From assembly GCF_000027125.1 (NCBI RefSeq), contig NC_017626.1: a DNA stretch of 64,000 nucleotides; one strand, given 5' to 3'. Made by a program: the position numbers. The stretch is from Escherichia coli 042. GTDB taxonomy: Bacteria; Pseudomonadota; Gammaproteobacteria; Enterobacterales; Enterobacteriaceae. The number at the start of each line of letters is the position of its first letter. The first letter of the stretch is position 1. Below are positions 50,101 through 53,100 of the stretch, piece by piece.

Positions 50101-53100
50101 TAACCGTACAAAGAAATGGCTATTTATATGCGACAGTTTATTCGACAAAACGCCCAATTGCAGCCATTGTTGCGACTTCATATCAACGTCTTATAGCGCA
50201 TTTTTATAATCATCTTATTTTTGCATTACCCGCCGGTATTTTGGGGAGTCTTGTTCTGTTATTACTCTGGCTACGTATTCGACAAAACTATTTGTCTCCC
50301 AAACGCAAATTGCAACGCGCCCTCGAAAAACATCAACTTTGCCTTTATTACCAGCCAATAATCGATATCAAAACAGAAAAATGTATCGGAGCTGAAGCAT
50401 TGTTACGTTGGCCTGGTGAGCAGGGGCAAGTAATGAATCCGGCAGAGTTTATTCCGCTGGCAGAAAAGGAGGGGATGATCGAACAGATAACTGATTATGT
50501 TATTGATAATGTCTTCCGCGATCTGGGCGTGTACCTGGCAACACATGTCGATCGCTATGTTTCTATTAACCTGTCGGCCTCCGATTTTCATACGTCACGG
50601 TTGATAGCGCGAACCAATCAGAAAACAGAGCAATACGCGGTGCGTCCACAGCAAATTAAATTTGAAGTGACTGAACATGCATTTCTTGATGTCGACAAAA
50701 TGACACCAATTATTCTGGCTTTCCGCCAGGCTGGTTACGAAGTGGCAATTGATGATTTTGGTATTGGCTACTCTAACTTGCATAACCTTAAATCATTGAA
50801 TGTCGATATTTTGAAAATCGATAAATCGTTTGTTGAGACGCTGACCACCCATAAAACCAGTCATTTGATTGCGGAACACATCATCGAGCTGGCGCACAGT
50901 CTGGGGTTAAAAACGATCGCTGAAGGCGTCGAAACTGAGGAGCAGGTTAACTGGCTGCGCAAACGCGGCGTGCGCTATTGCCAGGGATGGTTCTTTGCGA
51001 AGGCGATGCCGCCGCAGGTGTTTATGCAATGGATGGAGCAATTACCCGCGCGGGGGTTAACGCGCGGGTAATAAAACTACAGGCGGTGGCGATAATCGCT
51101 GGGAGTGCGATCAAACTGCCGACGGAAAACGCGGGAGAAGGTCTGCTGCGAGACATAACCCAGGTCCATTGCGATATCAAAAATCGGACGCTCGGTGGTG
51201 CGTAACTCAACGGCGGCCAGTAACAGGCGGCGTTGGCGAATGTAATCACCAAGTGTCTGATGCGTCACCGTGCGGAACATCCGCTGTAAGTACCACTTTG
51301 AATAGCCTGATTTTTTTGCGACGACATCAATGTTAAGCGGCTGGTCAATATGCTCGTCAATCCATGCGATAAGATCCTGAATAATTTTCTGATGGGACAT
51401 AAATCTGCCTCTTTTCAGTGTTCAGTTCGTTAATTCATCTGTTGGGGAGTATAATTCCTCAAGTTAACTTGAGGTAAAGCGATTTATGGAAAAGAAATTA
51501 CCCCGCATTAAAGCGCTGCTAACCCCCGGCGAAGTGGCAAAACGCAGCGGTGTGGCGGTATCGGCGCTGCATTTCTATGAAAGCAAAGGGTTGATTACCA
51601 GTGTCCGTAATAGCGGCAATCAGCGCCGATATAAACGTGATGTGTTGCGATATGTCGCAATCATCAAAATTGCTCAGCGTATTGGCATTCCGCTGGCGAC
51701 CATTCGTGAAGCATTTGGCGTGTTGCCCGAAGGGCATACATTAAGTGCGAAAGAGTGGAAACAGCTTTCGTCCCAATGGCGAGAAGAGTTGGATCGGCGC
51801 ATTCATACCTTAGTGGCGCTGCGTGACGAACTGGACGGATGTATTGGTTGTGGCTGCCTTTCGCGCAGTGATTGCCCATTGCGTAACCCGGGCGACCGTT
51901 TAGGAGAAGAAGGCACAGGCGCACGCTTGCTGGAAGATGAACAAAACTAAAGCGCCACAAGGGCGCTTTAGTTTGTTTTCCGGTCTTTGTCTTTCTCTCT
52001 ATCCCGCTGGTACACAGGAGGGTTTCCCCCGACGTCAACACACCTCATTCGAGCACGTGGTGGAGGTTCCGGTTGGTGTTGATGCTTTAATTGTATGTCA
52101 CCGGCGTTTCTTCGCCAGTGTAAAAGTACACTTTTTAGCCGCAATATTTTTGTCATCTCAGACGATTTTTTATCGCAATCCTGAACGGTATGCGGCTCGA
52201 TAACGCTGCAATCTTGCGCATCGACGATAACGTTTGCGCATCAATTGCCTGGTTTTTCATCGTCAAGACAATAAAAGAGAAAAAAGCAGCAAACTTCGGT
52301 TGAAAAAGCCGCTATGATCGCCGGATAATCGTTTGCTTTTTTTACCACCCGTTTTGTATGCGCGGAGCTAAACGTTTGCTTTTTTGCGACGCACCAATTT
52401 GTCGCAAACCTGGAGCAGGAAGATAACGTTTCGCTGGCAGGGGATTGTCCGCCACGCATCTTGACGAAAATTAAACTCTCAGGGGATGTTTTCTTATGTC
52501 TACGCCATCAGCGCGTACCGGCGGTTCACTCGACGCCTGGTTTAAAATTTCACAACGTGGAAGCACTGTCCGTCAGGAAGTGGTTGCCGGGTTAACAACG
52601 TTTCTGGCGATGGTCTACTCGGTTATCGTCGTTCCAGGCATGTTGGGTAAAGCGGGCTTCCCGCCTGCGGCAGTTTTCGTTGCGACCTGTCTGGTTGCCG
52701 GACTCGGTTCTATCGTGATGGGTCTGTGGGCTAATCTGCCGTTGGCGATTGGTTGCGCCATCTCCCTGACGGCGTTTACCGCATTCAGTCTGGTGCTGGG
52801 GCAACATATTAGCGTACCTGTCGCGCTGGGTGCCGTGTTCCTGATGGGTGTGCTGTTTACGATAATTTCTGCCACGGGTATTCGTAGCTGGATTTTGCGC
52901 AACTTGCCGCACGGTGTGGCGCACGGCACGGGGATCGGTATCGGTCTGTTCCTGCTGCTGATTGCTGCGAATGGTGTCGGTCTGGTGATTAAAAACCCGC
53001 TTGATGGTCTGCCCGTTGCGCTGGGTGATTTCGCGACCTTCCCGGTGATTATGTCACTGGTAGGTCTGGCGGTGATCATCGGCCTGGAAAAACTGAAAGT

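What the first reader, a model, noticed from the sequence alone, without database searches (positions are those of the whole stretch)
52198..52434. Reiterated (G)ATAA(C/T)CGTTTGC motif in the long leader upstream of ghxP
The 545-bp region between soxR and ghxP contains at least four copies of a motif with an AACGTTTGC core: cgataacgtttgcgca (52226-52240, preceded by the related cgataacgctgca at 52198-52210), ggataatcgtttgc (52323-52336), taaacgtttgc (52369-52379) and agataacgtttcgc (52421-52434). Two copies are followed by T-runs. The core resembles half of the PurR operator (GCAAACGTTTGC-type), which fits a purine-base permease, but four spaced partial sites is not the single-operator layout typical of PurR targets; they could instead be binding sites for another factor or repeated structural elements of the leader RNA.
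Basis: seen in the sequence. Interest (0 to 1): 0.5.

Follow-up and report, generated by a model that had tools for sequence, protein, structure and literature searches.

The report
PurR operator cluster upstream of ghxP
The repeated motif in front of the E. coli guanine/hypoxanthine permease gene ghxP is mostly a cluster of binding sites for the purine repressor PurR, a regulation already published for this gene; one copy probably looks like a site only because it base-pairs with a real site in the mRNA leader.

Summary
All five copies sit at the stated coordinates, and PurR-like sites cluster here far beyond chance.

The copies differ in kind.
- Copy 1 (52224-52239) is the PurR motif reported by ChIP-chip for ryjA/yjcD (Cho 2011).
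- Copy 3 (52366-52381) scores highest in the window with a leave-one-out PurR matrix (19 bits) and was already listed as the yjcD PurR site.
- Copy 2 (52323-52338) is a weak box (10 bits; 13 in some species). It overlaps the -10 hexamer of the only good sigma-70 promoter. I did not find it reported.
- Copy 4 (52420-52435) is not a conserved PurR box. Its RNA is complementary to copy 3 and closes a leader helix around a hairpin with strong covariation.
- Copy 0 (52198-52210) is specific to the E. coli lineage and is probably chance.

Copies 1-3 are conserved in about 78 of 80 Enterobacteriaceae species. The distance from copy 1 to the promoter almost never changes length (1 event, against 32 and 47 in the two neighbouring segments). 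I cannot explain this.

Verdict: ghxP is a known PurR regulon member with an unusually multi-site, partly undocumented architecture. The transcription start is predicted, not measured. Interest is low to moderate.

The parts
52198..52210 (+). Copy 0 (cgataacgctgca). Not a PurR site and not conserved; probably a chance resemblance.
   Evidence: It scores -3.4 bits with the PurR matrix. The sequence occurs only in the window, L001 and E. whittamii. Other species have aaa.tGTTGCcAg at this position.
52214..52220 (.). Conserved TTGCGCA, 20 bp upstream of the identical TTGCGCA that ends O1. Its function is unexplained.
   Evidence: Its major-allele frequency is 0.98 across 77 distinct sequences. 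The 16-mer that contains it scores below 8 bits and lacks the central CG.
52224..52239 (+). O1: a full-strength PurR operator, ACGATAACGTTTGCGC. Its centre is about -104.5 from the predicted start.
   Evidence: It is identical to the ChIP-chip motif for ryjA/yjcD at 4,276,230-245. It scores 18.5 bits and ranks second in the window. It is present in 79 of 80 Enterobacteriaceae loci.
52240..52299 (.). Spacer between O1 and the -35 hexamer. Its sequence varies but its length is almost invariant.
   Evidence: 18 of 57 columns fall below 60% conservation, and there is no ORF and no 3-base periodicity. Only 1 length change occurred on the tree of 80 taxa, against 32 and 47 in the neighbouring segments.
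52300..52305 (+). Predicted -35 hexamer, TTGAAA.
   Evidence: It belongs to the only sigma-70-like match in 51900-52600, with 10 of 12 positions matching. GTTGAAA is found in all 81 sequences checked (window plus L001-L080) and in the Erwinia loci.
52324..52329 (+). Predicted -10 hexamer, GATAAT, after an 18-bp spacer. The predicted start is about 52335-52337.
   Evidence: The distance from -35 to -10 is unchanged in all 80 taxa analysed. No experimental start site could be obtained.
52323..52338 (+). O2: a weak PurR-like box, GGATAATCGTTTGCTT, overlapping the -10 hexamer and the predicted start. Its right half-site is perfect and its left half is poor.
   Evidence: It scores 10.2 bits and ranks 8th of 127,970 positions in the window, which is below the weakest training site at 12.1 bits. 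In species with A at position 1 it scores 13.4 bits. It is conserved in 78 of 80 loci and in Erwinia. Mangrovibacter keeps GATAATCG but has lost TTTGC.
52366..52381 (+). O3: a full-strength PurR operator, AGCTAAACGTTTGCTT. Its centre is about +38.5, inside the transcribed leader.
   Evidence: It scores 19.05 bits and ranks first in the window. It was already listed as the yjcD PurR site at -130. It is present in all 80 genome loci and in Erwinia.
52383..52408 (+). HP1: a leader RNA hairpin, UUUGCGACG / UGUCGCAAA. The T-run after copy 3 forms its 5' arm.
   Evidence: RNAalifold predicts it, and all 6 pairs keep pairing through changes on both sides. 95% of cells are paired. Each pair changed state 6-16 times on the tree. 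It appears in the minimum-energy folds of E. coli and Klebsiella.
52420..52435 (+). Copy 4 (AAGATAACGTTTCGCT). Positions 52425-52435 are the 3' strand of a leader RNA helix whose 5' strand is the RNA of O3 (52366-52376). As a PurR site it is weak and not conserved.
   Evidence: It scores 7.0 bits on the minus strand and 2.7 on the plus strand. It was published only as a computational 'additional' site at -76. Most species have ATGACGTTTAACTGG here, with the GC of the PurR half-site missing. The helix is present in both minimum-energy folds. The pair at alignment columns 3 and 78 covaries: CG 26, UA 25, UG 12, other 8. The left column changed at least 8 times on the tree.
52480..52498 (+). ghxP ribosome-binding region (CAGGGGAT) and start codon (52496).
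   Evidence: The region is nearly invariant across species.

Best explanation
The motif copies form a multi-site PurR control region for ghxP, joined to a structured mRNA leader.

When hypoxanthine or guanine is plentiful, the PurR-corepressor dimer binds two strong 16-bp operators. O1 is centred about 105 bp upstream of the predicted start. O3 is centred about 38 bp downstream of it, in transcribed DNA. A weaker box, O2, covers the -10 hexamer and the start point of the one conserved sigma-70 promoter (TTGAAA, 18 bp, GATAAT).

O2 is the only site placed to exclude RNA polymerase. O3 is placed to hinder promoter escape or early elongation, as in the roadblock operators of purB and purR. O1 is too far upstream to act by itself, yet it is held at a fixed distance from the promoter. 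It therefore probably helps occupancy or action at the promoter in some way that depends on spacing.

Copy 4 is not primarily a protein site. The operator is nearly palindromic, so the RNA strand that pairs with the transcript of O3 necessarily looks like an operator again. This helix, together with the hairpin HP1, forms a conserved leader domain. Copy 0 is chance.

What is shown:
- PurR occupancy of this region in vivo (literature).
- Purine-dependent repression of ghxP (literature).
- Matrix scores, conservation and spacing of the sites.
- RNA covariation in the leader.

What is inferred:
- The position of the transcription start.
- That PurR occupies O2 and O3 individually.
- The division of labour among the operators.
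- Any function of the leader structure.
For: Literature:
- The ChIP-chip PurR region ryjA/yjcD (4,275,855-4,276,485) covers the whole gap, with a saturated signal in adenine. Its listed motif is O1.
- yjcD/ghxP is repressed by adenine in a PurR-dependent way, falls 4-fold with the adenine precursor HAP, and belongs to the PurR-1 iModulon.
- O3 and copy 4 were already listed as predicted sites.

Computation here:
- The leave-one-out matrix gives O3 19.05 bits, O1 18.5, O2 10.2 and copy 4 7.0. These rank 1, 2, 8 and 29 of 127,970 positions. The training sites span 12.1-25.2 bits.
- The clustering is reached by at most 2 of 5000 shuffles.
- O1, O2 and O3 are present in 79, 78 and 80 of 80 orthologous loci from Enterobacteriaceae genera.
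- Erwinia has the promoter, O2 and O3 but no O1. One lineage (L083) has O1 and O2, again 99 bp apart, but no O3.
- The -35 and -10 hexamers and their spacing are invariant.
- The distance from O1 to the -35 hexamer changed once on the tree, against 32 and 47 changes in the two neighbouring segments. That single change is in Mangrovibacter, which also lost the right half of O2.
- HP1 covaries at all six pairs.
- The O3:copy-4 helix appears in independent folds of E. coli and Klebsiella, with one covarying pair.
Against: - No experimental start site was obtained, so every position relative to +1 rests on a consensus match plus conservation.
- ChIP-chip resolution (a 630-bp region) cannot tell which boxes are occupied.
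- O2 scores below every training site in E. coli. Part of its conservation is simply the -10 hexamer.
- Support for the O3:copy-4 helix rests on one covarying pair. The AACGTT core pairs trivially because it is a palindrome conserved on both sides.
- The leader folds no better than shuffled sequence: z-scores are -0.5 and +0.2.
- Cho et al. did not list yjcD among the genes significantly changed in their arrays.
- A mechanism for the fixed O1 spacing is missing. A chimera carrying the PurR regulatory domain showed no looping behaviour.
Confidence: 0.75

Rival explanations
1. O1 and O2 act cooperatively. PurR dimers at the strong distal O1 and the weak promoter-proximal O2 touch each other, or RNA polymerase, through a DNA loop or bend. 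O1 would then load PurR onto O2, as the auxiliary operators do in lac and gal. This extends the main explanation rather than replacing it.
For: - The centre-to-centre distance from O1 to O2 is exactly 99 bp in every species that has both sites. The same holds in L083.
- Only one length change occurred across 80 taxa, although a third of the spacer columns vary freely.
- That single change is in the lineage that lost the right half of O2.
- O1 is too far upstream to block polymerase on its own.
Against: - The LacI/PurR chimera LLhP showed no spacing-dependent repression in looping tester strains.
- From my own knowledge, PurR lacks the LacI tetramerisation helix. Also from memory, 99 bp falls between the lac looping optima of about 92.5 and 104 bp.
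- Erwinia manages without O1.
- The O2-O3 distance is not phased: it takes 42-46 bp and many larger values.
Confidence: 0.18
2. The copies are sites for a different, unidentified protein that recognises GATAACG or TTGCGCA, with PurR only incidental.
For: - Three E. coli copies share GATAA(C/T)CG, with T at matrix position 5. Only 1 of the 27 published PurR sites has T there.
- A conserved TTGCGCA lies upstream of O1 and is unexplained by PurR.
- The fixed spacing has no explanation.
Against: - At O1 the 'AT' of GATAAC changes to GT or AC in several genera, while the PurR core stays invariant.
- O3 has no GATAA at all.
- At O2, GATAAT is the -10 hexamer.
- Copy 0 and the GATAA of copy 4 are not conserved.
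- PurR occupies the region in vivo.
Confidence: 0.07
3. All copies are repeated structural modules of one long leader RNA that starts near soxR.
For: Copies 3 and 4 do pair as RNA. The AACGTT core is self-complementary.
Against: - A conserved promoter sits between copies 1 and 2.
- No consistent hairpin appears in the O1-O2 interval across 79 species.
- Erwinia lacks O1 entirely.
- The 140 bp next to soxR is the sraL gene on the opposite strand.
- No Rfam family matches the region at E-values up to 1.
Confidence: 0.04
4. Copy 4 is an operator for RbsR or another LacI-family paralogue. From memory, its AACGTTTCGC resembles the rbs operator GCGAAACGTTTCGC.
For: The resemblance is recalled from memory only. 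Copy 4 scores better on the minus strand, as AGCGAAACGTTATCTT.
Against: The TCGC part is specific to E. coli and close relatives; most species have TTTAAC. I found no literature link between RbsR and ghxP.
Confidence: 0.03

Closest known systems
E. coli PurR operators of the pur regulon (purF, purHD, purT, xanP and others)
   Same: O1 and O3 share the 16-bp imperfect palindrome around a central CG. Their matrix scores fall inside the range of validated sites. The target is a purine-related gene, PurR occupies the region in vivo, and purines repress the gene.
   Different: Most targets have a single annotated operator, usually between or over the -35 and -10 hexamers. Here neither strong site overlaps the promoter; only the weak O2 does.
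Two-operator PurR targets: purR, purA and the predicted pair at purP/yieG
   Same: These also carry more than one PurR box per control region. From my own knowledge, the purR and purB operators lie downstream of the start and act as roadblocks, which matches the position of O3.
   Different: ghxP has three conserved boxes that bracket the promoter (upstream, on it, and downstream). One inter-site distance is strictly fixed. I did not find this arrangement described for any PurR target.
lac (O3, O1, O2) and gal (OE, OI) auxiliary-operator looping by LacI/GalR-family repressors
   Same: The repressor belongs to the same protein family. Operators flank the promoter, and the weak core site could be helped by a strong distal one. 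The O1-O2 distance is conserved to the base pair.
   Different: PurR is not known to form dimer-dimer contacts, and its regulatory domain gave no looping signal in a chimera. The O2-O3 distance is free to vary.
Structured 5' leaders and riboswitches of purine transporter genes (for example the purine riboswitch upstream of Bacillus pbuG, from my own knowledge)
   Same: A conserved, covarying RNA structure lies in the leader of a purine permease gene.
   Different: There is no match to any Rfam family. Only one hairpin and one helix are supported, the fold is no more stable than shuffled sequence, and no ligand or switch is evident.

Membership tests
PurR operator | A 16-bp imperfect palindrome with a central CG that scores within the range of validated sites | tested here: met
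   This row concerns O1 and O3. They score 18.5 and 19.05 bits, against 12.1-25.2 for 27 published sites, with the ghxP site left out of the matrix.
PurR operator | Occupied by PurR in vivo | tested here: inconclusive
   ChIP-chip shows PurR on a 630-bp region that covers all four boxes, with O1 as the listed motif. That resolution cannot assign occupancy to single boxes.
PurR operator | The target gene is repressed by purines through PurR | tested here: met
   This comes from the literature only. Reports cover PurR-dependent repression by adenine, a 4-fold decrease with HAP, and membership of the PurR-1 iModulon.
PurR operator | Conserved in orthologous control regions | tested here: met
   O1 is present in 79 of 80 loci, O2 in 78 of 80 and O3 in 80 of 80. 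O2 and O3 are also present in Erwinia.
PurR operator (O2 specifically) | A matrix score in the range of validated sites | tested here: inconclusive
   O2 scores 10.2 bits in E. coli, below the weakest training site, but 13.4 in many species and 12.7 in L083. Its right half, CGTTTGC, matches the consensus perfectly. Its empirical rank is 8 of 127,970, a frequency of about 6e-5.
PurR operator (copy 4 specifically) | Matrix score and conservation of the GC half-site positions | tested here: not met
   Copy 4 scores 7.0 bits, and only ACGTTT is conserved. Most species have TTTAAC where PurR needs TTTGC.
LacI/GalR-type looping operator set | Inter-operator distance conserved in helical phase | tested here: inconclusive
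   The O1-O2 distance is fixed at 99 bp. The O2-O3 distance varies by single bases and by large insertions.
LacI/GalR-type looping operator set | The repressor forms dimer-dimer contacts | not testable with these tools
   The only evidence is from the literature: the LLhP chimera with the PurR regulatory domain showed no spacing dependence.
Known cis-regulatory RNA family (Rfam) | A match to a curated covariance model | tested here: not met
   In 51000-53500 only sraL matches at E-values up to 1. Nothing matches in 52084-52495.
Conserved leader RNA structure | Base pairs maintained by compensatory changes | tested here: met
   All 6 pairs of HP1 covary, and 0 of 500 shuffles reach the observed score. 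The O3:copy-4 helix is supported by one pair only.

The most novel reading that the evidence does not exclude
ghxP could be controlled by a three-operator PurR module with two unusual properties. First, a distal strong operator is locked at an exact distance (99 bp to the weak operator on the -10 hexamer). That would imply cooperative or polymerase-directed action by a LacI-family dimer generally thought to act alone. Second, an unrecognised structured leader RNA, which reuses the transcribed operator as one strand of a helix, would add a second, post-transcriptional layer of control.
Probability: 0.2. Interest if true: 0.55.

Novelty: already known. Interest (0 to 1): 0.3.

Why it matters
Mostly this closes the question. 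The motif is the PurR operator, and ghxP is an established PurR target, so nothing basic about purine regulation changes.

Two details could be worth a small experiment. The first is why a repressor site 105 bp upstream has been held at a base-pair-exact distance from the promoter across a whole bacterial family. The second is whether the leader structure built partly from the transcribed operator affects translation or stability of the permease mRNA.

The case also gives a practical caution for motif scans. A near-palindromic operator inside a transcribed region can create a second, spurious 'site' wherever the RNA pairs with it.

Tried and rejected
- **Experimental start site.** I looked for ghxP/yjcD start sites in supplementary tables of several transcriptome papers. 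The paper was not held, the gene or coordinates were absent or the file was cut, or no supplements were held. One look-up used a wrong identifier and was wasted. The start site therefore remains a prediction.
- **Known RNA family.** No Rfam family matches the gap apart from sraL.
- **Intrinsic terminators.** The T-runs after copies 2 and 3 are not terminators; the scan finds only the soxR/sraL terminator. The T-run after copy 2 is not conserved. The T-run after copy 3 is the 5' arm of HP1.
- **Small ORF in the O1-O2 spacer.** There is no conserved stop-free frame and no 3-base periodicity.
- **Conserved hairpin in the O1-O2 spacer.** Some species have GGTGA...TCACC or GGCGA...TCGCC, but most have nothing.
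- **CRP, IHF or a second promoter around O1.** I inspected the consensus by eye and found no consistent match. A TTGTTG-17-GATAAC candidate lacks the essential final T of the -10 hexamer.
- **A promoter next to O3.** I found no acceptable -10 hexamer.
- **Three-way-junction, riboswitch-like fold.** The E. coli fold shows a third small hairpin, CCUG/CAGG, but it is not conserved.
- **RbsR at copy 4.** There is no conservation and no literature support.
- **Helical phasing of O1-O3 and O2-O3.** The distances differ by 1-3 bp among close relatives.
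Full report
**Context.** The window is E. coli. The stretch 51900-52600 is 100% identical to strain PCN033, is present in 5420 of 5426 complete E. coli genomes, and is annotated soxR / ghxP (gene map). soxR ends at 51950 and ghxP starts at 52496. The first 140 bp after soxR are not leader. They are the sraL (RyjA) small RNA gene on the minus strand, 51943-52083 (Rfam, 153 bits). That leaves about 412 bp, 52084-52495, for ghxP control.

**Observation.** The bare 9-mer is not enriched over the 64-kb window, but the local cluster is. 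I used a PurR weight matrix built from the 27 other sites in Table 1 of Cho et al. 2011. With it, the region holds four sites of at least 6.9 bits, three of at least 10 bits and two of at least 15 bits. These counts are reached by 2, 1 and 0 of 5000 dinucleotide-preserving shuffles. No other 412-bp stretch of the window has more than two such sites.

**What each copy is.**
- **Copy 1 (O1, 52224-52239, ACGATAACGTTTGCGC)** is, letter for letter, the motif that ChIP-chip assigned to the PurR-bound region 'ryjA/yjcD'. The offset between window and K-12 coordinates is constant at three checkpoints. It scores 18.5 bits.
- **Copy 3 (O3, 52366-52381, AGCTAAACGTTTGCTT)** scores 19.05 bits, the best in the window. 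A 2015 regulon reconstruction already lists it at -130. That paper reports only the -76 site as new relative to RegPrecise, so O3 was evidently already in RegPrecise.
- **Copy 2 (O2, 52323-52338)** scores 10.2 bits, rank 8 of 127,970. This is below the weakest training site (12.1). It reaches 13.4 bits in the many species that have A at position 1. Its right half, CGTTTGC, is a perfect half-site. I did not find it reported.
- **Copy 4 (52420-52435)** scores 7.0 bits. It has been published only as a computational 'additional' site at -76.
- **Copy 0 (52198-52210)** scores -3.4 bits.

**Comparison across species.** I took eighty orthologous ghxP loci, one per species across Enterobacteriaceae genera. 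Their proteins are 90-100% identical to the E. coli protein, and their coding DNA is 75-100% identical pairwise.
- O1 is kept in 79, O2 in 78 and O3 in 80 of these loci.
- Copy 0 exists only in E. coli and its nearest relatives.
- Copy 4 keeps only ACGTTT. In most species the sequence is ATGACGTTTAACTGG, which lacks the GC that a PurR half-site needs.
- The GATAA that makes the E. coli copies look alike is not the conserved part. At O1 it becomes GGTAA or GACAA in several genera, while the PurR core never changes. This argues against a separate GATAACG-binding factor.
- Erwinia has a GST gene inserted after soxR. It retains the promoter, O2 and O3 but has no O1. One insect-associated lineage (L083) retains O1 and O2, again 99 bp apart, but has lost O3.

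**Promoter and geometry.** The only good sigma-70 match on either strand of 51900-52600 is TTGAAA (52300-52305), an 18-bp spacer, then GATAAT (52324-52329). Both hexamers and their spacing are invariant in all species examined, Erwinia included. The GATAAT of copy 2 is therefore the -10 hexamer.

With a predicted start at about 52336, the centres fall at these positions:

| Element | Centre relative to predicted +1 |
|---|---|
| O1 | about -104.5 |
| O2 | about -5.5 |
| O3 | about +38.5 |
| Copy 4 | about +92.5 |

I could not obtain an experimental start site, so these numbers are inference.

**Spacing.** The distance from O1 to O2 is exactly 99 bp in every species that has both. On a neighbour-joining tree of ghxP, the O1-to-(-35) segment changed length once. 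The -10-to-O3 segment changed at least 32 times, and the O3-to-ATG segment at least 47 times. Yet a third of the spacer columns are less than 60% conserved, and the spacer carries no ORF and no codon periodicity. The single length change is in Mangrovibacter, which has also lost the right half of O2 while keeping the -10 hexamer. An invariant TTGCGCA sits 20 bp upstream of the identical heptamer that ends O1. I cannot explain either feature.

**Leader RNA.** Immediately after O3, the T-run and GCGACG pair with UGUCGCAAA to form hairpin HP1 (52383-52408). All six core pairs keep pairing through changes on both sides, such as GC to AU and CG to UA. Each pair changed state 6-16 times on the tree, and 95% of cells are paired. 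This shows that the region is transcribed and that its structure is under selection.

Around HP1, the RNA of O3 (52366-52376, AGCUAAACGUU) pairs with copy 4 (52425-52435, AACGUUUCGCU). This helix appears in the minimum-energy folds of both E. coli and Klebsiella. The one variable position of O3 (C or U at position 3) covaries with its partner: CG 26, UA 25, UG 12, other 8. The left column changed at least eight times. The remaining pairs are uninformative, because AACGTT is a palindrome conserved on both sides.

My reading is that copy 4 resembles an operator because it is the complement of a near-palindromic operator. Confidence in this helix is moderate. The leader as a whole is no more stable than shuffled sequence, and it matches no Rfam family.

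**Mechanism.**
- *Best supported:* PurR with its corepressor represses ghxP through several operators. The literature shows PurR on this region in adenine and purine-dependent repression.
- *Inferred from position:* O2 would exclude polymerase. O3 would act just after initiation, as the downstream operators of purB and purR do (from my own knowledge). O1 would assist in a spacing-dependent way.
- *Against simple looping:* a chimera carrying the PurR regulatory domain showed no spacing-dependent repression.

**Relation to what is known.** ghxP is an established PurR target, and three of the four meaningful copies are already in the literature or databases. More than one PurR site per gene has precedent at purR and purA and, by prediction, at purP. 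Four details appear undescribed in the library I could search:
- the conserved weak box on the -10 hexamer;
- the base-pair-exact O1-to-promoter distance;
- the HP1 hairpin;
- the operator:pseudo-operator RNA helix.

These refine a known system and do not define a new kind. I rate the finding as already known, with interest 0.3.

Noticed in passing
window 51943-52083 (-): The sraL (RyjA) Hfq-binding small RNA gene lies convergent with soxR and overlaps its last codons. The two share one bidirectional terminator hairpin (51944-51974). It takes up a quarter of the 'intergenic leader'.
   Followed up: partly
window 52214-52220 and 52234-52240: An invariant direct repeat, TTGCGCA-N13-TTGCGCA. The second copy is the end of O1. 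The first is not part of any PurR box and has no assigned function.
   Followed up: partly
window 52438-52445 and 52480-52487; also 52417-52424: CAGGGGAT occurs twice: once inside a small hairpin upstream and once as the ghxP ribosome-binding site. A further GGA motif (AGGAAGAT, or AAGGAGAT in other species) lies upstream. CCGCC/CCACC at 52448-52452 could pair with either GGGG. From memory this looks like a CsrA-type or anti-Shine-Dalgarno arrangement. The positions are invariant, so there is no covariation evidence.
   Followed up: no
L031, L034, L037-L040, L043, L047, L050, L052-L054, L056-L058, L060, L072, L074-L080, between the -10 hexamer and O3: Many genera carry insertions of 45-160 bp right after the predicted start. 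Several contain inverted repeats (for example Klebsiella/Raoultella TTTGCTC...GAGCAAA). The block just upstream of O3 (ACCACCCGTTTTGTATGCGCGG) always stays next to O3.
   Followed up: no
window about 36938-48371: Between ssb and yjcB this strain carries an integrated island with two integrases, two hypothetical genes, an Avs4 (AVAST type 4) anti-phage nuclease and an AbiGi-family gene. This is read from the annotation of the identical PCN033 region.
   Followed up: no
window 29822-29837: The third-best PurR-matrix hit in the window (14.6 bits, AGGCCCACGTTTGCCT, palindrome-like) lies inside the tyrB coding sequence. It is probably chance.
   Followed up: no
E. coli strains GF43 (H2) and TUM2820 (H8): In GF43 the match to 51900-52600 is split into two pieces spanning 860 bp instead of 701, so about 159 bp are inserted in this gap. 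In TUM2820 only 67% of the query is covered at one place, and the record holds a second match.
   Followed up: no
L068 and L071 (Mangrovibacter), L080 (Pluralibacter gergoviae), L083: These are natural 'mutants' of the architecture. Mangrovibacter lost the O2 right half and gained 1 bp of spacing. P. gergoviae lost O1 and has a weaker O3 (12.5 bits). L083 lost O3 and has a stronger O2 (GGATAATCGTTTGCGT, 12.7 bits).
   Followed up: partly
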